64,000 nt of DNA from NCBI RefSeq assembly GCF_009914755.1, contig NC_060945.1. One strand, written 5' to 3'. Below the pieces are notes generated by a model that was not told the DNA's origin, made no database searches, and was given only the letters and a program-made list of their open reading frames with translations. Both the position numbers and the translations under genes were made by a program. Shown here in pieces: positions 4,784-50,902 of the stretch. The DNA is from the human T2T-CHM13v2.0 reference genome, Homo sapiens. Each line of letters opens with the position of its first letter. Within the stretch, counting starts at the first letter, position 1.

Positions 4784-5044
4784 TCCCTCCCCACCCCAGC
4801 AACCCCGTGCCCTCCTCACCCTCCCCACCCCAGCAACCCCATGCCCTCCTCACCCTCCCCACCCCACCAACCCTGTGCCCTCCTCACCCTCCCCACCCCA
4901 GCAACCCCGTGCCCTCCTCACCCTCCCCACCCCACCAACCCCGTGCCCTCCTCACCCTCCCCACCCCACCAACCCCGTGCCCTCCTCACCCTCCCCACCC
5001 ACCAACCCCATGCCCTCACCCTCCCTACCCACCAACCCCGTGCC
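4784..5044. repeat. C-rich minisatellite, about 34 bp x 7-8
   Basis: Unit ccctccccaccccagcaaccccgtgccctcctca; G-runs on the minus strand. Confidence 0.92.
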
Positions 5045-9960: not shown

Positions 9961-12915
9961 CCTCTAGGACTGGATGAATCCATTGTAAGCATTCGCAGCA
10001 CCCCACTCCCCACGCTGTTCAGTGGTCCTGCAGAAGTTATTAAGCTCCTTCTGCAGGCTCTTGCCCGGCAGGGTCCCGGGCAGGCTGTGGCCTGCTTCCT
10101 CCACATTTCAGAGCTGAGGTGCTGGTGCGGGCAGGTCTCCTGAGCTGGGGGGTCAGCTGTGTGGCCAGTGATGGTGACGCCTCAGGCCGTGCATGGCCGG
10201 GGAGGCGGCCCTGCCTCTGCACTCTTTTGACTCCATGACTACTGGTGTCTTCGGACGCCAGAGTCGGGGGAGCAACCATGGGGCACCGCCCCTGCCTGGG
10301 GAGGCAGCACGAGGCCTGAGCCCAGCTTACAGGGGGACATCCACCCCCGCTGAGAGCCCCACCTTCACGGCGAGGATCTGTAGAAGAAGACATTTGATAT
10401 TACTCGGCAAAAAAAACAAGAAACGAAAACACAAAAAGAGCTCCTCTGAAGAAGAAAAGGTATTTGCGCTGTGGTCCACCTAGAAATAATGTTGTTGGCA
10501 CAACTAGAGCATTCCTCAGTCATTCAGGAGCACTCCCTGCCGGTGCGTCCACATGTCCCAACCCCGATAGATGAGGCGCTGTTCGCCCGTGGAGGGGTCA
10601 GGTTGTCGTGACCTTATCTTTACCCTTAGGCCGTCCATCCCGGGGCCTGGGGTTTCCTGCGCCAGTCACGGTGGGCTGTGTAGGTGGCCATGTGTTCGGT
10701 CTTTCCCCAGGAGGTACGTACCATGTGCTGGGAGGCCTGGAGGCTGAGCCGCCCCCCGCGCCTATGAGTTGCACCCTCACAGCGGCGGCCAAACCTCCTG
10801 CTCACTTTGCCCCATAGGAAGAGGTTAGAGTGAGGCGGAACGGGTTGGAATCCCAGCTCTGACACTCACTCACTGTGGGATGCTGCACAAATGACTTCCT
10901 CTCCCTGGGCCTCAGTATACTCATCTGTGGAATGAGATTACAGCAACATCCCACCTCCTATGGCGATGGAGTAAATTAAGGCACAATGCCTGTGTGGGTT
11001 TAGCCCAGTGCCTGTGCATGGCGACAGTGCATTTCTGATGGCCCCTCCAGCGTTCAGGGCTAACTCTTCCAGGATTAACTTTCATATCTTGGATGAGAGC
11101 TCATCTAGGAAGGTCTCCTAGCAACCCCTGGGTTCCCACTGGTCCTTCCGCCTCACGGGGCTCCTTTTTGAACCCCTCACATCATTTCCATTCAATCTCT
11201 TGCTCCTAACAGCACGGCCCCTATTCCTTCTCTTTCCCAACATCTGCTCTCAGGAGAGATTCTCATACAGTGTGCATTTGTTCTAGAGTGAGGGTCATCA
11301 CTGGGCTTCTATGAGGCACCGCTGTGAACCCTCTGCACCGACCTTAGCCAGAGGAGCAGGACTCCCACCGGCATCCTTCTGCGTAAGAGGCCTTGTGGGT
11401 CTTCTGGGGCTCTGGAATCAACGCCGCTTTTCCTGGGGCCAGAGTAGGTGGACCTGAGCTCCCCAAAGCTTCCAGTTTGCTGCCTGCTCCCACCCGCCTC
11501 GCCACTGCGCGAGCCCTTTCCATCCCCTCTGCAGAGTGAGAGAAGGGCCGTGAGTGAGGATCCTGGCCTAGGGCTGTCACCATCCCCCTCACCTGCTGGC
11601 CAGGCTAACCTACTGCAGGCTGCTTCCTTTCCTTAGGTTCACGGGTACCGCTATTTGTCCAGCGTCCATTTGCGGTGGCATTAGGATGAGGTGCTCTGTG
11701 CCCTCTTTCTCCCAGTGTGAATCTGACACACGCCCCCAGGAGAGTCCGAGGGGCATCACTTCTGGAGGACGCCCTGGGCCCTGAAAGACAGCTCATGGTC
11801 CAACTGAGGAGCCTGCACCTTGCTGGGACAGGGTGGCCCAGGAGATCTGGGGTCTGTACCTGCTCCTGGACCCTCTCCAGCTTGTTGTTCTGGGTGGGGC
11901 CAGCTCAGGAGGGGCACCTGGGCTGGGAGTCTCTGAAGCAGCTGCCCCCATTGCTCCAGGAGAGGGCTCAGCCCTTGTCCCAGCTGCGGGGCCAGTGGGA
12001 GCAGTGTGCAGCGTCCTGCCCTGGGCTCTCGCTGGCTCTGCGCCCTCGCCTGGCCAGCCCGGGAGGGTGCAGAGGCTCACTGGCAGCTCTTCCTGCTCCC
12101 ACACCTGCCTCTTCCTCTGAACTGGAGGGCCGGCAAGCCTCAAGGCTTAATGCAAGACTAAATACAGCTGTCAGCGCCTTCCTCTGAGCTCGCTTGGGAG
12201 CTGTCTGGGGGGACGGAGGAGTGAAGATTAGGTGAATCACCACGCCCCAAAATAGACATCAGGTGCTTGGTGGTTTGAGCCAGCGTCTTGCCTGGTGCCT
12301 CTGCTGTCCTCCGTGGACTGCAGCCCAGCCAGCCTAGGCTCCAACCCCAACCCGGAGCACCCCCAGGAGAGTTACCTGTAGGCTGGAGGTTGAGTAGCAC
12401 CCCAGGAAGAGGTGTGGGTTGGCACCAGCAGTGTTCTGATGGCAAGGCAGCCCCCAGGCCATGCTAGGGTGGTGGCATAGCTGTTGTGGCAGCTGACGAG
12501 CTTGCTGTTCTCCAGGGAAGCTGCTTCTGTGGAGACCGCAGGAAGCACAACAGAAAAAAACCCACAAAACGAGCCTCAGAGCACTCAGCAGCAGGGTTTT
12601 CTTTGCCCAGAACTGAACTGGTCCTGCATCGTGGCTTAAATTCCACCTGAATTGGAACTTCTCTGGCATGCCGGGTGTGGGTTCGTTCCCGAGCACCTCC
12701 ACCCGCAGCTCTACAGAAGCACGCGCAGAAGGCACTGTCACCTCCAGCAGGGCCTGGCCCTGACGACCTCGGCTCAGCCACCCCATGGGAGCTACATTGT
12801 CCTTGTCCTCACCTTCATTCCCCTCAGGCGGGCCCCCCGGTGACATGACATCACAAGTCTTTGGGCACAGGAGGAGGGACATACCTGTGGAGACACCCGG
12901 GTGCTCTAGAATATG

Positions 12916-13260
12916 GCGCGGGAAGTTCATGTTGTACTCCGCTGGACCCCACCCCCGGCGTGGGAAGTTCATGTTGTACTCAGGCTGACCCCCACCCCCC
13001 CCACGAGAGAAGTCCATGTTATACTCAGGCTGACCCCCACTCCTGGCATGTAAAGCTGGTGTTATGCTCAGCTGGACCCCCACCCCCGGTGTGGAAAGCT
13101 CATGTTATACTCCACTGGCCCCCACCCCCGGCGTGGAAAGCTGGTGTTATACTCCGCTGGACCCCCACCCCCGGCGTGGAAAGCTGGTGTTATACTCCGC
13201 TGGACCCCCACCCCCCATGCGGAAAGTTCACGTTATACTCAGCTGTGTCCCCACCCCTGG
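12916..13260. repeat. Minisatellite, about 43 bp x 8
   Basis: Unit ggaagttcatgttgtactccgctggacccccacccccggcgt. Confidence 0.92.
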
Positions 13261-13641
13261 CTCAGTTACTTTCCTATTTCTTGGTTGAGACACTAAGTAT
13301 TGGAGAATGTTGGCACATCAAAGAGAGAGGAGAAAACATTTCAAGTTTTGGGTGTGGAAACAGAATAAAGAAGAGAGGGCTACATGCACACCCATGGGTG
13401 CTAATATTTAAGGAATGAACATTTCCTAATCTTTGCCCCCAAATAAGCCAACCAATGTGAAGGTGGGCACAGGCAGGCCGTAAGGTTGTCATGAGAGTGT
13501 TGGACGGATGCCCCAAAATGCCCCTGCTCCCGGCCGTTCACTGCAAAGACGGCTAGGAAGGACTCCTTCCAGCATGGGTCTGTCTTCTGATCACTCTTTG
13601 GCTGTTTTCTCATGGGTTTTGATTGTGTCTCCCCCTGGCAG

Positions 13642-14959: not shown

Positions 14960-15790
14960 GTGACCTGGTGAGCCCCACGGGCGGTGGACTGTCTGCGGCA
15001 ACAGGGGTAACGGTCCCAGGTCTTGGCACGGGAACAGCAGCCCTCGGCCTAGAGAACTTCACCTTGTCACCCAGTCCTGGGTACCCTCAGGGCACCCCGG
15101 CAGCAGGCCAGGCCTGGACCCCAGAGCCCTCACCCAGAAGAGGGGGCAGCAATGTGGTCGGGTATGACAGGAACAACACAGGAAAAGGCGTGGAGCAGGA
15201 GGTGCCCAGCACTGCCCCGGGTCTGGGGATGGACCAGGGGAGCCCCAGCCAGGTGAACCCCAGCCAGGGGAGCCCCAGCCAGGGGAGCCTCAGACAGGAG
15301 AGTACCAGCCAGGCGAGCCCCAGCCAGAGGAGCACCAGCCAGGGGAGCCCCAGCCAGGTGAACCCCAGCCAGGGGAGCACCAGCCACGCGAACTCCAGCC
15401 AGGGGAGCCCCAGCCAGGGGAGCCCCAGCCAGGAGAGCCCCAGCCAGGGGAGCACCAGCCAGGCGAGCCCCAGCCATAGGAACACTATCGGGGTGATAGG
15501 CACCACCTCCTCCCCGAAGGCTCCTGGGTCAACCCACAGCTTCCCTCCTGGGGCCACAGATGGCCCACTGGCCCTCCCTGGACAGCTACAGGGAAACTCC
15601 ACCATGGAGCCACCCTCCTGGCCTTCCCCTACTGAGGACCCCACCGGCCACTTCCTGTGGCATGCCACCCGTTCCACCCGGGAAACACTTCTGAATCCCA
15701 CGTGGCTGCGAAATGAGGACAGTGGACCCTCCGGTTCTGTAGACCTGCCATTGACCTCCACCCTCACAGCTCTGAAGACCCCCGCCTGTG
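14960..15790 (+). CDS. UMODL1: UMODL1 Ser/Thr/Pro-rich linker exon (831 nt long form; short form is 14960-15201 plus 15586-15790)
   Basis: ggcag|GT GAC CTG...GCC TGT G|gtgagt; open throughout (ORF 14860-15894); internal GT..AG segment 15202-15585 is 384 nt. Confidence 0.92.
15234..15476 (+). repeat. Coding 15-bp tandem repeat (SQGSP/SQAS units) within the exitron
   Basis: cagccaggggagccc repeated about 16 times with variants. Confidence 0.92.
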
Positions 15791-16194: not shown

Positions 16195-16945
16195 CAACTC
16201 TGCACCCCCCCAGTAATGCTGCACTCCCATAGCTGTTCTGCACCCCTCAGCTGTTCCGTCACCCTGCCAAGCATTCTGCAGCCCTGCAGCTGCTCTGCAC
16301 ACCAAGGTGTGCTGCACCCCAGCTTTTCTGCACCCCCGGCTCTTCTGTACTCCCAGCTGTTCTGCACCTCCCCAGCTGTTCTGTATCTCCCCAGCTGCTC
16401 TGTATCTGCCTAGCTGTTCTATATGCCCCAGAGATTCTGCATTTCCCCAGCTGTTCTGCACCCCCAGCTGTTCTGCACCTCCCCAGTTCTTCTGCACCCC
16501 CAGCTGTTCTGCATCCCCAGCTGTTCTGTATCTGCCCAGCTGCTCTGTATCTCCCCAGCTGCTCTGTTTCTGTCCAGCTGTTCTATATGCCCCAGAGATT
16601 CTGTATCTCCCCAGCTGTTCTGCACCCCCAGCTGTTCTGTACCCCCAGCTGTTTTGTACCTCCCAGCTCTTCTGTATCTCCCCAGCTCTTCTGTATCTCC
16701 CCACTGTTCTGCACCTCCATAGGTGTTCTGCACCTCCCCAGCTGTTTTGTGCCCCCTCAGCTGTTCTGCACCCACAGTTCTGTAGTTCCCCAGCTGTTCT
16801 TCACCCCAGATATTGAACCTCTGCAGATGCTCTGGATTGTCAGCTGTTCCGTACCCCCAGTTGTTTTTTTACCCCCTAAGTGTTCTGTACCCCCATCTGC
16901 TCTACACATCCAGAGTTCCTGCACCCCCCAGCTGTTATGCACCTC
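16195..16945. repeat. Degenerate 17-20 bp minisatellite
   Basis: ccccagctgttctgcacc / ctgtatct variants over about 750 bp. Confidence 0.9.
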
Positions 16946-31085: not shown

Positions 31086-31322
31086 GGTTTACACCATCAT
31101 CGAGGACCTCCACGGCGCTGGGAATTTTGTTACCGAAATGCAGTTGTTTATCGGAGACTCTCCCATACCTCAGAATTATAGCGTGTCTGCCAGTGACGAT
31201 GTCAGGATCGAAGTGGGGCTCTACAGGCAGAAAAGCAACCTCAAGGTGGTCCTGACGGAGTGCTGGGCAACCCCGTCTAGCAACGCCCGGGACCCCATCA
31301 CCTTCAGCTTCATTAACAACAG
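31086..31322 (+). CDS. UMODL1: UMODL1 coding exon, ZP-C (237 nt, phase 2-2)
   Basis: tgcag|G GTT TAC...AAC AAC AG|gtaggg; VYTIIEDLHGAGNFVTEMQLF...VVLTECWATPSSNARDPITFSFINN, classic ZP-C CWATP motif. Confidence 0.96.
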
Positions 31323-31513
31323 GTAGGGCTCAGGAGTGCAGGCACCCCCATCCAGCAATGCCTGGGGCTTTATTAACAATAGGTAGGGCTCAAGAATGCA
31401 GACATCCCCATCCAGCAATGCCCAGGGCTTCATTAACAATAGGTAGGGCTCAGGAGTGCAGGCACCCCTGTCCAGCAATGCCCAGGGCTTCATTAAGAAC
31501 AGGTAGGGCTCAA
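31263..31513 (+). repeat. 60-bp tandem repeat spanning an exon/intron junction (4 donor copies)
   Basis: Lines 31321, 31381, 31441 and 31501 all begin aggtagggctca; donors at 31323, 31383, 31443, 31503. Confidence 0.95.
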
Positions 31514-31751
31514 GCAGGCACTGCCATTGCCTGGCCTTGCTGTGTGGCCAGCTCTGGGCTCTGCAGGATTTCCAGGCGAGTGCTGTCATGGACCTGGGTT
31601 TTGGGGAACAAATGAGGTGCCCGGTCCTCGACTTCCACGGAGCCTGTGGAATCTGCGAGTGTCGTCAGATGTAGTCGTGAGTAAACTCATCTGAGAACAA
31701 GGACAGCGGGGCTCGCTGACAAGCAAGGAGTCCCATTTCCTCTCTTCTCAG

Positions 31752-31911
31752 CTGCCCCGTGCCCAACACATACACCAACGTGATTGAGAACGGCAACTCC
31801 AATAAGGCCCAGTTCAAGCTGAGGATCTTTTCCTTTATCAACGACTCCATCGTCTACCTGCACTGCAAACTCCGCGTCTGCATGGAATCCCCCGGAGCCA
31901 CGTGCAAAATC
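31752..31911 (+). CDS. UMODL1: UMODL1 coding exon, ZP-C (160 nt, phase 2-0)
   Basis: ctcag|C TGC CCC...AAA ATC|gtaagt; SCPVPNTYTNVIENGNSNKAQFKLRIFSFINDSIVYLHCKLRVC...CKI. Confidence 0.96.
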
Positions 31912-33340: not shown

Positions 33341-33792
33341 ATCTCAGGCATCTAGTGAGCAGATCCCACCATGTCACTGAGCCAGGCAGTCTTTTTTGTA
33401 AGGCAAAGGTGTAAAGGGGAACAAATGGCTGCAGCAACCTTTGGAGAACACAGAGGGACTCTGAGGGCTGTGACCAAGACACAGTCCTCAAGGGACCCAA
33501 GGAAGCAGCTCTAGCAACCAAAAGCAGCTCAAGGGGTCTTCTCCAGCCTGCTGCTCTTGCAGACCTCACTTCCTTCCCCGCTGACGCCTGGGCCTGCCTC
33601 TTGTTGCACCAGGACCCACCACCCTGGTCTCACCAGGTCTCCCACTCCTCTGTCTAAACTCAGCCCCCTTGCCTTGCAACTTCTAGCAGGATAAAATCGC
33701 ATACATCACATTAGCATCCTTGATAGTAGCTCCTTTCTCATAAATGTTGTTCAATTAATTTGATGTTTCTCTTCTTGGAAAAAAAAAAACAG

Positions 33793-33877
33793 AATTGCAA
33801 TAACTTTCGGTTGCTGCAAAATAGTGAAACCTCTGCCACACACCAGATGTCCTGGGGACCCCTCATCCGGTCTGAAG
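33793..33877 (+). CDS. UMODL1: UMODL1 coding exon, end of ZP-C and external hydrophobic patch (85 nt, phase 0-1)
   Basis: A11-cag|AAT TGC AAT...TCT GAA G|gtgagt; NCNNFRLLQNSETSATHQMSWGPLIRSE (SWGPL resembles a ZP EHP). Confidence 0.9.
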
Positions 33878-35201: not shown

Positions 35202-35428
35202 CTGACTCCCACTTTTATGACAGAAGGAAAGAAACTTCCATGTCCTTTAAGCCACTGCTATTTTGATTTTTTTCTCTTGCTTGCTGCTGAGCCTAATCCT
35301 AGTTGGTTTTCCTTTTTTTGTTGTTTTTTTCCCTAATCTTGATGACCCTCTCCCTTCTCTGTCTTTCCCTGTATGAGAACTTCTGGGGTTTGGATGCAGG
35401 GTGTGAGCCAGAATCTGAATGCTGCTCA

Positions 35429-35763
35429 GGTCTTGGCCATGAAGCTGGGGAACAGGAGGAGGGAGGTCTCGGCCATGAAGCTGGGGAACAGGAGGAGGGA
35501 GGTCTCGGCCATGAAGCTGGGGAACAGGAGGAGGGAGGTCTCGGCCATGAAGCTGGGGAACAGGAGGAGGGAGGTCTCGGCCATGAAGCTGGGGAACAGG
35601 AGGAGGGAGGTCTCGGCCATGAAGCTGGGGAACAGGAGGAGGGAGGTCTCGGCCATGAAGCTGGGGAACAGGAGGAGGGAGGTCTCGGCCATGAAGCTGG
35701 GGAACAGGAGGAGGGAGGTCTTGGCCATGAAGCTGGGGAACAGGAGGAGGGAGGTCTTGGCCA
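35429..35763. repeat. Near-perfect 36-bp VNTR x 9.3
   Basis: ggtctcggccatgaagctggggaacaggaggaggga; internal copies identical. Confidence 0.97.
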
Positions 35764-41541: not shown

Positions 41542-41723
41542 GTGAGCCTCCACATGCAGAAGCAGGCCTGGGTGCCGGTTATGTGGTCCTTATTGTGGTG
41601 GCCATCTTCGTGCTGGTGGCGGGAACAGCCACCCTTCTGATCGTGCGCTACCAGAGAATGAATGGGAGATACAACTTTAAAATCCAGTCCCACAACTTCA
41701 GCTACCAGGTGTTCTACGAATAG
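41542..41723 (+). CDS. UMODL1: UMODL1 last coding exon: TM helix and cytoplasmic tail, stop TAG 41721-41723; exon probably runs to the donor at 41744
   Basis: ccgag|GT GAG CCT...; GEPPHAEAGLGAGYVVLIVVAIFVLVAGTATLLIVRYQRMNGRYNFKIQSHNFSYQVFYE*. Confidence 0.93.
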
Positions 41724-41885
41724 GAGGCGCAGGCTGACAGGAAGGTGGGTGTGGAGTGGGGTGGGAGGTGCAGGCTGACAGGAGGGTGGGTGCGGAGTGG
41801 GGTGGGAGGTGTAGGCTGACAGGAAGGTGGGTGTGGAGTGGGGTAGGAGGTGCAGGCTGATAAGAAGGTGGGTGCGGAGTGGGGG
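41722..41885 (+). repeat. G-rich 41-bp tandem repeat x 4 containing the last 5' splice site
   Basis: Yaggctga at 41730, 41771, 41812, 41853; GTGGGT donors at 41745, 41786, 41827, 41868. Confidence 0.93.
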
Positions 41886-43637: not shown

Positions 43638-45683
43638 GGAGAACAAGGAAAGACGAGAGGCCAATTTTCCCTCGATGTTTTAATTTCAAGGAGGGGGACA
43701 TCCAGCATGACCCAGCACCGACCCACCAGATGTCCTTAGAAAGCTAGTGGGATAGTGTTGGCCTCATCGCTGGGATTCGCATCTTAAATATTAAGTAAAA
43801 GGCACTGACATTTCCTCGTAACTCTATCTAGGGAGGTGACTGGTCTCTAGCACTGGTCCCGTCTATGCTGTAAGGGTCCTGAGACCCCAGAATACTGCGC
43901 ATGTTAGTTACCAGGAGTCCTGGCAGGAGAGACGGGAAAGACAAAGCTAACACAAGCGTCCCCCTCACATGGGCAGAATCACTTCCACAAGCGGGTGGCG
44001 TTTTCTTTGAAGTTGCCCAGCAAGGGCAGCATGGAGGTTGCCTTTTGGAAACGTGTGCTGTAGTCTGGGCTTTGCTGGTGACCTGGGAGGATTGGCTTGA
44101 GTTCTCTGGGCCCCATTTCCTCATTTTAAGATTGGAGCCAGTGTCTACTACACTTTGCTGAGTTGTTTCAAAAATCTGTTATCTCAAGAAAATAAGGACC
44201 TGAGCACAGGAAAGATGGGCTGGGCTGGAGAAGCTGCCTGCCCGACGAAGAGGGGGTGGGCTGATGTTGACAATGTCTGTTGTTTCCCAACATCCCCGTG
44301 AGGTTGTGCTGTTATTAGCATCCTGTGTTATAGATGGGAATCCAGGGCAGAAAGGGATAGACGTCCCAGGTCACGTGGCTAGGAGGTCCAGGGCAAGAAG
44401 GGATAGGTGTCCCAGGTCACGTGGCTAGGAGGTCCAGGGCAGGAAGGGATGTGTCCCAGGTCACGTGGTTGGGAGGTCCAGGGCAGGAAGGGATAGGCCT
44501 CCCAGGTCACATGGCTGGGAGGTGGCCGAGCTGGGGCTGCATGGGATTTCCGTTTGGCTCTGGGGTCAGCTCTCTTAGCTACCAAGCTTAGAGCCTTTCT
44601 TACACTAGTGTTCACATGACTGATGGACCCTTAGAACAATGCCCCTTGCCTTTCCCCTTCATCAGAGACCCGGAGAATTTGTATTTTAGCAGCTGTGCAA
44701 GGGGATCCACAATTCTTAATTCTTGCAGTGGGGACACCAGGTGTCCCAGTTGAGAGGCAGCAACTGTTGTGGTTACAGGGAAGGAGCCTTCCCAGGACCC
44801 CTGAGCCTCCCCGGGAGGCAGGTGCTGCTGCTCAATTGTGGTCTGGGTCCTCAGCCACCTCCGGGGATCCCAAAGGGGCAGGGAACAACAGCGAAGTTTC
44901 AGTTCAACTTTACACTCTAATAGTGAAAAATAAGGAAGCTTCCTCAGTTTGGTAGCTTTTGGCCTCTGGTTTGGGGCCCATGGGGTTTGGGCCATGAAGA
45001 CCCCCTCCTCACCAACCCCATTGCCTCCCATCCTGGGCAGGAGACATTGTCAATACCAGCCCGCCCCCTCTTCGTCAGGCAGGCAGCTTCCCCAGCCAAG
45101 CCCGTCTTCCCTGTGCTCAGGTCCTTATTTTCTTGAGATAACAGATTTTTGAAACAACTCAGCAAAGTATAGTAGACACTGGCTCCAATCTTAAAATGAG
45201 GAAATGGGGCCCAGAGAACTCAAGCCAATCCTCCCAGGTCACCAGCAAAGCCCAGACTACAGCACACGTTTCCAAAAGGCAACCTCCATGCTGCCCTTGC
45301 TGGGCAACTTCAGAGAAAACACCACCCGCCTGTGGATGTGATTCTGCCCATGTGAGGGGGATGCTTGTGTTAGCTTTGTCTTTCCCGTCTCTCCTGCCAG
45401 GACTCCTGGTAACTAACATACGCAGTATTCTGGGGTCTCAGGACCCTTACAGCATAGACAGGGCCAGTGCTAGAGGCCAGTCACCTCCCTAGATAGAGTT
45501 ACGAGGAAATGTCAGTGCCTTTTACTTAATATTTAAGATGCGAATCCCAGCGATGAGGCCAACACTATCCCGCTAGCTTTCTAAGGAAATCTGGTGTATT
45601 GGTGCTGGGTCATGCTGGATGTCCCTTTCCTCGAAATTAAAACATCCGAGGGAAAACTGGCCTCTTGTCTTTCTTTGTTCTCC
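43638..45683. repeat. Large inverted repeat: arms 43638-44278 and 45042-45683, spacer about 763 bp
   Basis: Mirror ORFs 43828-44124(-) and 45196-45492(+) are nearly identical; arm ends traced by hand. Confidence 0.96.
44341..44525. repeat. About 46-bp tandem repeat x 4 (MIR-like core amplified) in the inverted-repeat spacer
   Basis: tccagggcagRaagggatag..tcccaggtcacgtggctaggagg. Confidence 0.88.
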
Positions 45684-50467: not shown

Positions 50468-50902
50468 TCACCCCCCACGCCCCATCTCTGTCCCTCCTGG
50501 GGAGGAAGGCTGTGGTGGGAGTCAACCCTCGCATCCCATCTCTGTCCCTCTTGGGGAGGAGGGCTGTGGTGGGAGTCAACCCTCGCATCCCATCTCTGTC
50601 CCTCTTGGGGAGGAGGGCTGTGGTGGGAGTCACCCCCCGCACTGTGTCTCTGTCCCTCCTGGGGAGGAGGGCTGAGGTTGGAGTCACCCCCTGCACCCTG
50701 TGTCTGTCCCTCCTGGGGAGGAGGGCTGCAGTGGGAGTCAATCCCCGCACCCCGTCTCTGTCCCTCCTGGGGAGGAGGGCTGTGGTGGGAGTCACCCCCC
50801 GCACCCTGTCTCTGTCCCTCCTGGGGAGGAGGGGTGCAGTGGGAGTCAATCCCCGCATCCCGTCTCTGTCCCTCCTGGGGAGGAGGGGTGCAGTGGGAGT
50901 CC
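50468..50902. repeat. 54-bp minisatellite x 8
   Basis: cYcYgtctctgtccctcctggggaggagggctgtggtgggagtcaMcccccgca; 18-aa periodicity in the ORF track. Confidence 0.95.

What the first reader, a model, noticed from the sequence alone, without database searches (positions are those of the whole stretch)
31263..31513. Junction-spanning 60-bp repeat builds four tandem donors and in-frame 27-nt micro-exon candidates inside the ZP-C domain
Seen: each unit is a copy of the last ~55 nt of the ZP-C exon (minus ~14 nt) plus the intron start, so AG|GTAGGG recurs at 31323, 31383, 31443 and 31503. Extending the exon to a downstream donor hits the in-frame TAG at 31324-31326, so those donors are poison decoys. 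Each copy also has a C-rich acceptor (cccYRtccag) exactly 27 nt before its donor: 31356-31382, 31416-31442, 31476-31502. These are phase 2-2 and read SNAWGFINN, SNAQGFINN and SNAQGFIKN, a mini-duplicate of the parental SNA..FINN. Adjacent units are 33 nt apart, too short to splice. The upstream introns for copies 2 and 3 would be 93 and 153 nt. Inference: a nascent, sterically mutually exclusive micro-exon array born from a VNTR, tuning ZP structure or mRNA level with copy number. Caveat: pyrimidine tracts are short and an extra AG lies upstream in each unit.
Basis: partly seen in the sequence, partly recalled or inferred. Interest (0 to 1): 0.8.

Follow-up and report, generated by a model that had tools for sequence, protein, structure and literature searches.

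The report
Junction-spanning minisatellite with silent decoy donors
A 60-base repeat in a UMODL1 intron is a decayed triple copy of the exon end plus its splice donor, a known kind of human minisatellite that most likely sits unused while the first donor does the splicing.

Summary
A 60-bp tandem array (31307-31514, 3.5 copies, 87% match) repeats the 12-mer AGGTAGGGCTCA at 31321, 31381, 31441 and 31501. That is 4 matches against 0.01 expected. The stated frames, stop and spacings check out.

Each unit derives from 31257-31332 (66 nt of exon plus 10 nt of intron), with 1-nt and 15-nt deletions.

The micro-exon interpretation gains no support:
- The candidate acceptors have poor pyrimidine tracts and only 14 AG-free nt. 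383-406 of 3145 intronic AGs score as well on four simple features.
- Branch-like motifs lie 40-44 nt upstream, with four AGs in between.
- The copies show neutral decay. All 9 of 9 exon CpG positions are lost, and the splice motifs are not conserved beyond chance.
- By the supplied annotation table, none of the six RefSeq transcripts uses them.

This is a new member of a known kind: minisatellites whose first monomer spans an exon-intron boundary (F7 IVS7, IFI6, CBS, LMNB2, PDGF; PMC1557585). In these, the most upstream donor is normally the one used.

UMODL1 holds a second such array at 41723-41884, and again the first copy is the annotated donor. Transcript data and copy-number polymorphism could not be tested here.

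The parts
31086..31322 (+). UMODL1 ZP-C exon. It is the 13th annotated exon in the window, and exon 19 of 23 by count. It ends in ...FINN plus AG.
   Evidence: Supplied annotation table. Pfam PF00100 ZP-C, E 2.1e-09, profile 2-74/133. Frame.
31257..31332 (+). Parental segment U0: 66 nt of exon tail plus the first 10 nt of the intron. The repeat units derive from it.
   Evidence: MAFFT alignment A1. U1-U3 align to it with one 1-nt gap and one 15-nt gap. The 15 nt are ancestral, because uromodulin aligns without a gap across that stretch.
31323..31331 (+). Start of the intron at the authentic donor (exon ...CAG | GTAGGGCTC). It carries the in-frame TAG at 31324-31326.
   Evidence: The donor 9-mer matches 7 of 9 positions of CAG|GTAAGT, which ties for best among the 16 annotated donors in the window.
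31333..31392 (+). Repeat unit U1. It holds candidate micro-exon 31356-31382 and pseudo-donor 31383 (TAG|GTAGGG).
31393..31452 (+). Repeat unit U2. It holds candidate micro-exon 31416-31442 and pseudo-donor 31443 (TAG|GTAGGG).
31453..31512 (+). Repeat unit U3. It holds candidate micro-exon 31476-31502 and pseudo-donor 31503 (CAG|GTAGGG, the same 9-mer as the authentic donor).
31513..31545 (+). Degenerate partial unit at the 3' end of the array. It aligns poorly.
   Evidence: TRF counts 3.5 copies ending at 31514. The U4_flank row of alignment A1 shows only scattered identity. The end point 31545 is my estimate by eye.
31715..31751 (+). Likely branch site (CTGAC, A at 31719, 33 nt before the exon) and strong pyrimidine tract of the authentic acceptor.
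   Evidence: Motif scan. Pyrimidine fraction 0.94, the highest of the 17 annotated acceptors. Its role as branch point is inferred, not shown.
31752..31911 (+). Next ZP-C exon. It starts C|TGC..., giving S-C-P across the junction.
   Evidence: Annotation table. Pfam PF00100, E 1.2e-10, profile 84-133/133. Frame.

Best explanation
This is an old, degenerating minisatellite whose first monomer spans the junction between the UMODL1 ZP-C exon and its intron.

How it arose (inferred from the alignment):
1. A 76-bp segment (66 nt of exon plus 10 nt of intron) was duplicated in tandem.
2. The intronic copy lost 15 nt and 1 nt and picked up a few substitutions.
3. The resulting 60-bp unit was then amplified to about 3.5 copies.

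What it does now:
- The copies lie wholly in the intron and evolve neutrally.
- As a by-product they repeat the donor three times as pseudo-5' splice sites. They also carry an acceptor-like TCCAG descended from the exonic TCTAG.
- Productive splicing uses the most upstream donor (31322>31752), as the annotation shows and as in the F7 IVS7 model of 5'-to-3' oriented donor choice.
- Any use of a downstream donor would give an immediate stop. With four exon junctions downstream, that should be an NMD substrate. I expect such use to be noise-level.
- The 27-nt 'micro-exons' are in frame only because they are copies of coding sequence with a deletion that is a multiple of three. I expect them not to be included.

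What is shown: the repeat anatomy, its origin from the exon, the frames, the weak acceptors and the neutral decay. What is inferred: which sites the spliceosome actually uses.
For: Anatomy:
- TRF score 325.
- The 12-mer occurs 4 times against 0.01 expected.
- The units align to 31257-31332 with 1-nt and 15-nt gaps.
- All three units share both gaps, so the deletions came before amplification.
- The exon version is ancestral. The uromodulin chain 6tql_A (E 7e-05) aligns ungapped over the stretch that holds the 15 nt.

Neutral decay:
- All 3 exon CpGs are TG or CA in all 3 units (9 of 9). The states are mixed (CA,CA,TG / TG,TG,TG / TG,CA,CA), which needs at least 5 separate events.
- Pairwise differences are 20 transitions to 2 transversions.
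- 11 of 60 columns vary among the units.
- The two longest invariant runs (12 and 12 nt, over the donor and over TCCAGCAATGCC) are not unusual; a permutation test gives P = 0.15.
- Differences fall on the 27-nt 'exon' part (10 of 81 pairwise sites) about as often as on the 23 nt before it (12 of 69).

Acceptors:
- Pyrimidine fraction is 0.56; 15 of 17 annotated acceptors are at least as high.
- T fraction is 0.12-0.19. The longest pyrimidine run is 5. The AG-free zone is 14 nt, shorter than in all 17 annotated acceptors.
- 383-406 of 3145 intronic AGs are at least as good on all four features, as are 14 of 17 annotated acceptors.
- yTnAy motifs occur only 40 and 44 nt upstream, with four intervening AGs.
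- The authentic acceptor at 31752 is the strongest in the window by pyrimidine content (0.94) and has CTGAC 33 nt upstream.

Other points:
- RNA folding of 31290-31540 is no more stable than shuffles (z +2.13; 197 of 200 shuffles fold at least as well). No structure needs to be invoked.
- Precedent from PMC1557585 (abstract, Introduction and Discussion read): in F7 IVS7, LMNB2 and PDGF only the authentic, most upstream donor is used despite identical downstream copies.
- Same gene: a second junction-spanning array at 41723-41884 (period 41, 4.0 copies, 90%) has donors at 41745, 41786, 41827 and 41868. The annotated donor is again the first.
- Chance: tandem repeats of period 10 or more cover 3040 of 47058 nt of the gene part. 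2 of 33 junction bases inside a repeat therefore matches the 2.13 expected.
- The supplied RefSeq table lists no alternative exon here among six transcripts.
Against: - No transcript data were examined. NMD-sensitive products would be under-represented in any annotation, so their absence from RefSeq is weak evidence.
- The pseudo-donors are as good as the real one. They are identical from -2 to +10; 31503 is identical over the whole 9-mer. They match the consensus at 6-7 of 9 positions against 4-7 for the annotated donors.
- In two of the five published cases listed in PMC1557585 (IFI6 and CBS), the two proximal pseudo-sites are used alongside the authentic one.
- My acceptor assessment rests on four simple features and 17 in-window positives. 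It is not MaxEntScan or SpliceAI.
- Two annotated UMODL1 acceptors are as poor or poorer in pyrimidine content (0.50 and 0.25), so weak acceptors can work in this gene.
- A UGC lies 17-19 nt before each candidate AG. By recall, such motifs help neuronal micro-exons, and UMODL1 is expressed in olfactory neurons (PMC8874799, passages).
- With 60 columns and three units, the conservation test has little power.
Confidence: 0.75

Rival explanations
1. Decoy-donor dosage control. A meaningful share of pre-mRNAs is spliced from 31383, 31443 or 31503. This gives exons extended by 60, 120 or 180 nt that stop at 31324-31326 and are degraded by NMD. Repeat number would then set the yield of productive UMODL1 mRNA.
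For: - The pseudo-donors are identical to the authentic donor from -2 to +10, and 31503 matches over the full 9-mer.
- Every extension reads R then stop.
- In IFI6 and CBS, proximal pseudo-sites in junction-spanning minisatellites are used constitutively (PMC1557585, Introduction).
- NMD would hide such products from annotation.
Against: - In F7, pseudo-sites identical to the authentic site are not used at all. Even improved ones do not compete unless they match the consensus perfectly (PMC1557585, abstract and Discussion). LMNB2 and PDGF behave the same way.
- Nothing here shows that copy number varies.
- Unit divergence of 12-18% and complete CpG decay point to an old, quiescent array rather than an actively varying one.
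- There is no sign of selection on the donor block beyond chance (P = 0.15).
Confidence: 0.13
2. One of the three 27-nt copies is included at a time as a mutually exclusive micro-exon, because the 33-nt gaps are too short to splice. This would insert 9 residues just before the conserved Cys that opens the next ZP-C exon.
For: - All three are 27 nt, in phase and open. Each has CAG before it and a good donor after it.
- The upstream introns of 93 and 153 nt would be spliceable.
- A UGC lies 17-19 nt upstream of each AG (sequences). Its relevance is recalled, not tested.
Against: - The acceptors are at the bottom of the annotated range on all four features. 12-13% of intronic AGs are as good.
- Four AGs lie between the only branch-like motifs and the candidate AG. 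The CAG 14 nt upstream would give 41-nt exons that shift the frame and stop.
- Exons of 27 nt are, by established knowledge, hard to define without dedicated enhancers. The upstream 23 nt are purine- and G-rich rather than pyrimidine-rich.
- The coding-like part varies as much as the rest of the unit. The changes are W/Q and N/K replacements from CpG decay and other substitutions.
- The insertion would fall between Pfam ZP-C profile positions 74 and 84. It would duplicate the ...FINN segment next to a conserved Cys, which is more likely harmful than tuning (inference).
- No annotated transcript uses these stretches.
Confidence: 0.04
3. Assembly or collapse artefact. The array length in this assembly would not reflect a real allele.
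For: None found. Tandem arrays are in general prone to misassembly.
Against: - The units are distinguishable: 11 of 60 columns vary.
- The array is only 208 bp, easily spanned by single reads.
- The 180-nt core occurs once in the 3.1-Gb assembly.
- The annotated exon boundary fits the first unit exactly.
Confidence: 0.01

Closest known systems
F7 intron 7 37-bp minisatellite (Borensztajn et al. 2006, PMC1557585; abstract, Introduction and Discussion read)
   Same: - The first monomer spans the exon-intron boundary, so the authentic donor is followed by identical pseudo-donors at fixed spacing.
- The annotated mRNA uses the most upstream one.
- Use of the next one would give an aberrant product.
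   Different: - The F7 unit takes only 4 nt of exon and 33 nt of intron, and has 5-9 nearly identical, polymorphic copies. Here the unit takes 66 nt of exon (50 after deletions) and 10 nt of intron, with 3.5 copies that are 82-88% alike in pairs. Polymorphism is unknown.
- Because so much exon was copied, the UMODL1 units also carry an acceptor-like AG and an open 27-nt frame. The F7 units do not offer this.
- Splicing behaviour is shown by 50 constructs for F7 and is only inferred here.
IFI6 (6-16) intron 2 and CBS intron 13 junction-spanning minisatellites (as described in the Introduction of PMC1557585; original papers not read)
   Same: The donor is reiterated by a minisatellite that starts in the exon.
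   Different: [quoted passage not shown] In UMODL1, any such use hits a stop codon at once, and no such transcript is annotated.
LMNB2 (100-bp unit) and PDGF intron 4 (81-bp unit) junction-spanning minisatellites (Introduction of PMC1557585; originals not read)
   Same: Long units, reiterated donor, and only the authentic donor used.
   Different: They have 10-18 copies, against 3.5 here. No comparison of exon content was possible.
Mutually exclusive exon pairs made by tandem exon duplication and enforced by short spacing (general knowledge, recalled; Zhuo et al. 2007 on splice sites born from tandem arrays is known to me only by its title in reference lists, since the paper was not held)
   Same: Homologous, equal-length, same-phase units in tandem, with spacing (33 nt) too short for an intron.
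   Different: Real clusters have competent acceptors, branch sites and transcript support. Here the acceptors are weak, competing AGs intervene, there is no transcript support, and the copies are decayed fragments of an exon rather than whole exons.
Second UMODL1 array at 41723-41884 (this window)
   Same: - It is a 41-bp minisatellite that starts in the exon and repeats the donor at 41745, 41786, 41827 and 41868.
- The annotated donor is the first copy.
   Different: It lies after the stop codon (the coding part ends at 41723), so it affects only the 3' UTR intron. The unit takes 22 nt of exon.

Membership tests
Junction-spanning minisatellite with reiterated pseudo-5' splice sites (F7 IVS7 type) | Head-to-tail array of units of roughly 10-100 bp | tested here: met
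   Period 60, 3.5 copies, 87% matches, score 325. 3 copies of 94 nt at 60-nt spacing.
Junction-spanning minisatellite with reiterated pseudo-5' splice sites (F7 IVS7 type) | The first monomer contains the exon-intron boundary, so the donor sequence recurs in the intron | tested here: met
   The parental unit 31257-31332 straddles 31322|31323. AGGTAGGGCTCA occurs 4 times at 60-nt steps against 0.01 expected.
Junction-spanning minisatellite with reiterated pseudo-5' splice sites (F7 IVS7 type) | Only (or mainly) the most upstream donor is used in normal mRNA | not testable with these tools
   The supplied RefSeq table shows 31322>31752 in the selected transcript and no other exon here among six transcripts. 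No RNA data were available.
Junction-spanning minisatellite with reiterated pseudo-5' splice sites (F7 IVS7 type) | Copy number varies among individuals (VNTR in the strict sense) | not testable with these tools
   Only one assembly was held. 0 papers hold both UMODL1 and VNTR.
Mutually exclusive (sterically enforced) tandem exon cluster | Tandem homologous exons of equal length and phase | tested here: met
   Three 27-nt stretches keep the frame and are open.
Mutually exclusive (sterically enforced) tandem exon cluster | Spacing between neighbouring exons is too short to be an intron | tested here: met
   33 nt between each donor and the next candidate acceptor. That this is below the workable intron size is established knowledge, not tested here.
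Mutually exclusive (sterically enforced) tandem exon cluster | Each exon has a competent acceptor (pyrimidine tract, branch site, AG-free zone) | tested here: not met
   Pyrimidine fraction 0.56, T fraction 0.12-0.19, AG-free zone 14 nt (below all 17 annotated). Four AGs lie between the nearest yTnAy and the candidate AG. 383-406 of 3145 intronic AGs are as good. These are simple features only.
Mutually exclusive (sterically enforced) tandem exon cluster | Transcripts that include exactly one member | not testable with these tools
   None among the six RefSeq transcripts in the supplied table. No RNA data.
Neuronal micro-exons dependent on upstream UGC and pyrimidine enhancers (features recalled, from no call) | Exon of 27 nt or less, with a strong pyrimidine tract and a UGC close to the acceptor | tested here: inconclusive
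   The length fits. A UGC lies at -19 to -17 but is followed directly by AG, and the upstream 23 nt are purine-rich (sequences). No validated model was run.
ZP-C domain (Pfam PF00100) as host of the junction | Significant match above the gathering score | tested here: met
   38.1 and 42.1 bits against a cut-off of 24.6 for the two flanking exons. The junction falls between profile positions 74 and 84 of 133. Uromodulin structures match at E 7e-05.

The most novel reading that the evidence does not exclude
In some UMODL1-expressing cell type (for example olfactory neurons), the array would be read by the spliceosome. Either a downstream donor is used often enough that repeat number sets the fraction of transcripts sent to NMD, or one 27-nt copy is included and inserts nine residues next to a conserved ZP-C cysteine. 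Together with the second junction-spanning array at 41723-41884, UMODL1 would then be a gene whose output is set at two places by minisatellite-borne decoy donors. In that second array, downstream donors would move the last exon junction from 21 nt to 62, 103 or 144 nt past the stop codon, which is beyond the 50-55-nt NMD rule.
Probability: 0.1. Interest if true: 0.6.

Novelty: new member of a known kind. Interest (0 to 1): 0.25.

Why it matters
If my reading is right, this is an ordinary by-product of a minisatellite-rich part of chromosome 21. It does not change the UMODL1 protein.

Its modest value is as a natural test case for how the spliceosome picks one donor among identical copies. UMODL1 carries two such arrays in one gene. 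The one studied here copies enough exon to bring acceptor-like sites along as well.

It also matters for variant interpretation:
- A mutation of the authentic donor at 31323 would be expected, by analogy with F7, to activate the next copy 60 nt downstream rather than to cause exon skipping. The result would be a stop codon.
- Short-read alignments and splice predictors may misplace junctions within the repeat.

Tried and rejected
- Own-genome search for other copies of the array: only the locus itself was found. The unit is therefore not a dispersed repeat. The tool scores only the best candidates, so this is a lower bound.
- RNA structure that might mask downstream donors: none. The region folds less stably than its shuffles (z +2.13).
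- Selection on the splice motifs within units: the two 12-nt invariant blocks happen to cover the donor and the candidate acceptor. A permutation test of 11 variable columns in 60 gives P = 0.15, so I rejected this as evidence.
- Literature on this array:
  - UMODL1 + VNTR: 0 papers.
  - UMODL1 + 'tandem repeat': 9 papers, none on this topic by title or abstract listing.
  - UMODL1 + splice: 49 papers, 25 listed, none on this intron by listing. In PMC8874799 the passages concern a zebrafish morpholino.
  - A five-term search with a two-term minimum listed 20 of 340 papers, none of which holds UMODL1.
  - The spl-TR catalogue paper PMC10078293 has 0 mentions of UMODL1 in its main text. I did not open its supplements, which may list this locus.
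- Zhuo et al. 2007 (tandem arrays as a source of spliced introns): not held. Citing papers gave only the reference line.
- A recalled example of a splice-altering junction VNTR in CUL4A could not be verified, so I dropped it.
- Structure prediction of the nine-residue insertion isoform: not attempted, because it needs a joined sequence that the tools do not take.
- Cross-species and pangenome comparison: no collection of vertebrate genomes was available.

Full report
**What is there**

- Tandem Repeats Finder reports one array at 31307-31514: period 60, 3.5 copies, 87% matches, no indels, score 325.
- The repeat finder gives three 94-nt copies at 60-nt steps, 88-89% identical to the reference copy.
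- The 12-mer AGGTAGGGCTCA occurs four times in the 64-kb window, at 31321, 31381, 31441 and 31501. The expectation is 0.01, and 0 of 100 shuffles reached four.
- The 180-nt core of the array is found once in the 3.1-Gb assembly, at the locus itself (only the best candidates are scored). It is therefore a local duplication and not a dispersed element.

**Host exon and reading frames**

The exon 31086-31322 and the next exon 31752-31911 both match Pfam ZP-C (PF00100). The E-values are 2.1e-09 and 1.2e-10, covering profile positions 2-74 and 84-133 of 133. The junction therefore lies inside the ZP-C domain.

The frame is ...SSNARDPITFSFINN followed by AG|C.
- Reading through the donor gives AGG then TAG at 31324-31326. 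All three longer exons that would end at 31382, 31442 or 31502 stop there.
- The three 27-nt stretches 31356-31382, 31416-31442 and 31476-31502 keep the frame. They read SNAWGFINN, SNAQGFINN and SNAQGFIKN.
- The distances of 33, 93 and 153 nt are correct.

**Origin of the units**

The units are homologous to 31257-31332, that is 66 nt of exon plus the first 10 nt of the intron, with one 1-nt gap and one 15-nt gap. So 50 of the 60 nt of each unit are exon-derived, including the codons for the conserved ...ECWATP... stretch, which are frame-shifted in the copies.

The 15 nt are ancestral. Human uromodulin chains in the PDB (best 6tql_A, E 7e-05) align to the exon product without a gap across that stretch.

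All three units share both deletions and several substitutions. One of these is the exonic TCTAG becoming TCCAG. From this I infer the following order of events:
1. One tandem duplication across the junction.
2. Decay of the intronic copy.
3. Amplification of the 60-bp product.
4. Further independent decay of each unit.

**Neutral decay**

- The exon has three CpGs in the aligned part. All nine corresponding positions in U1-U3 are TG or CA.
- The states are mixed among units (CA,CA,TG; TG,TG,TG; TG,CA,CA), which needs at least five separate CpG transitions, some after amplification.
- Pairwise differences are 20 transitions to 2 transversions.
- 11 of 60 columns vary among the units. Ungapped pairwise identity of the three intronic units is 49-53 of 60.
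- Differences fall on the 27-nt candidate exon (10 of 81 pairwise sites) about as often as on the 23 nt before it (12 of 69).
- The two invariant 12-nt blocks do cover the donor and the candidate acceptor. However, two such runs arise in 15% of random placements of 11 variable columns, so this is not evidence of selection.

I infer that the array is old, roughly tens of millions of years. This is a rough estimate from recalled substitution rates, and it is testable in primates. The array is not 'nascent'.

**Splice-site quality**

*Donors.* The authentic donor matches CAG|GTAAGT at 7 of 9 positions. The copies match at 6, 6 and 7. The 16 annotated donors in the window range from 4 to 7. The decoys are therefore as good as real donors, and from -2 to +10 they are identical to the authentic one.

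*Acceptors.*

| Feature | Candidates | 17 annotated acceptors |
|---|---|---|
| Pyrimidine fraction, -20 to -5 | 0.56 | median 0.75; 15 of 17 at least as high |
| T fraction | 0.12-0.19 | minimum 0.19 |
| Longest pyrimidine run | 5 | range 4-14 |
| AG-free zone upstream | 14 nt | minimum 16, median 34 |

- Of 3145 other intronic AGs in the gene part of the window, 383-406 (12-13%) are at least as good on all four features. So are 14 of the 17 annotated acceptors.
- The only yTnAy motifs in reach lie 40 and 44 nt upstream, in the preceding unit's TTCATTAAC.
- Four AGs lie between them and the candidate AG. One is a CAG 14 nt upstream that would give 41-nt exons, which shift the frame and stop.
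- The authentic acceptor at 31752 has the best pyrimidine tract in the window (0.94) and a CTGAC 33 nt upstream.
- These are simple features, not a validated splice model. Two annotated acceptors of this gene are also pyrimidine-poor (0.50 and 0.25).

*RNA structure.* Folding 31290-31540 shows no special structure (z +2.13; 197 of 200 shuffles fold at least as well).

**What is known**

Minisatellites whose first monomer spans an exon-intron boundary are a described class. Borensztajn et al. 2006 (PMC1557585; I read the abstract, Introduction and Discussion) study the 37-bp array in F7 intron 7.
- The authentic donor there is followed by four to eight identical pseudo-sites.
- Only the most upstream site is used.
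- The pseudo-sites are functional when the upstream one is destroyed.
- They do not compete unless made a perfect consensus.

The Introduction of that paper lists four more cases. In IFI6 (6-16) intron 2 and CBS intron 13, two proximal pseudo-sites are also used. In LMNB2 and PDGF intron 4, only the authentic donor is used.

The UMODL1 array fits this class on the two features I could test: tandem array, and junction inside the first monomer. The other two features, donor usage and polymorphism, could not be tested.

I found nothing in print on this array.
- UMODL1 + VNTR gave 0 papers.
- UMODL1 + 'tandem repeat' gave 9 papers, none on this by listing.
- UMODL1 + splice gave 49 papers, 25 listed, none on this intron by listing.
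- Supplements of tandem-repeat catalogues were not opened and may list it.

**Context in the same gene**

A scan of the whole window shows that this part of chromosome 21 is rich in minisatellites. Arrays of period 10 or more cover 3040 of the 47058 nt of the gene part (6.5%). With 33 junction bases, 2.13 would fall in a repeat by chance, and 2 do.

The second is at 41723-41884 (period 41, 4.0 copies, 90% matches). It starts just after the stop codon and repeats the donor at 41745, 41786, 41827 and 41868 as AAG, AGG, AAG and AAG followed by GTGGGT. The annotated donor is again the first copy.

In both junction-spanning arrays of this gene, then, the annotation uses the most upstream donor, as the F7 model predicts. 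No special explanation is needed for a repeat landing on a junction here.

**Verdict**

- **Most likely (0.75).** An old, neutrally decaying junction-spanning minisatellite. Its extra donors are silent pseudo-sites, and its 27-nt open frames are inherited leftovers of coding sequence.
- **Decoy-donor, NMD-based dosage effect (about 0.13).** This is possible. The decoys are strong, and two of the five published cases use proximal pseudo-sites.
- **Micro-exon reading (about 0.04).** This is unlikely on acceptor quality, competing AGs and lack of constraint.

None of these can be settled without RNA junction data and population or primate comparison, which the tools here do not offer.

This is a new member of a known kind and of modest interest. 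It is mainly a natural model for donor choice, and a caution for interpreting splice variants and read alignments at 31323.

Noticed in passing
window 41723-41884: A second junction-spanning minisatellite in UMODL1: period 41, 4.0 copies, 90% matches. It starts right after the stop codon (the coding part ends at 41723) and repeats the donor at 41745, 41786, 41827 and 41868. The annotated donor is the first. With the first donor, the last exon junction lies 21 nt after the stop. With the later ones it would lie 62, 103 or 144 nt after it, which by the 50-55-nt rule (recalled) would make the normal stop NMD-sensitive.
   Followed up: partly
window 15234-15476, inside 14960-15790: A 15-bp repeat (16.2 copies, 83% matches) fills most of the 384-nt intron 15202-15585. 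The supplied table says other RefSeq transcripts retain this intron as exon 14960-15790. One frame is open over all 831 nt (0 stops), and there the repeat reads as a Ser/Pro/Gln-rich pentapeptide array. The intron's donor, GAG|GTGCCC, is the weakest in the window (4 of 9 consensus matches). This looks like a coding minisatellite in an alternative isoform.
   Followed up: partly
window 33770-33795: The annotated acceptor of exon 33793-33877 is preceded by a run of 11 A directly before CAG. Its pyrimidine fraction is 0.25, the lowest of the 17 annotated acceptors. This is an unusual acceptor and a possible site of length polymorphism affecting splicing.
   Followed up: no
window 35428-35763 and elsewhere: The window holds many minisatellites (29 TRF rows at score 100 or more). 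One is a 36-bp unit with 9.3 copies at 99% identity at 35428-35763 in a UMODL1 intron. That is much more homogeneous than the array studied here, so it is more likely to be an active VNTR. Others lie at 4785-5044, 12915-13261, 16219-16809, 44341-44523 and 50468-50901.
   Followed up: no
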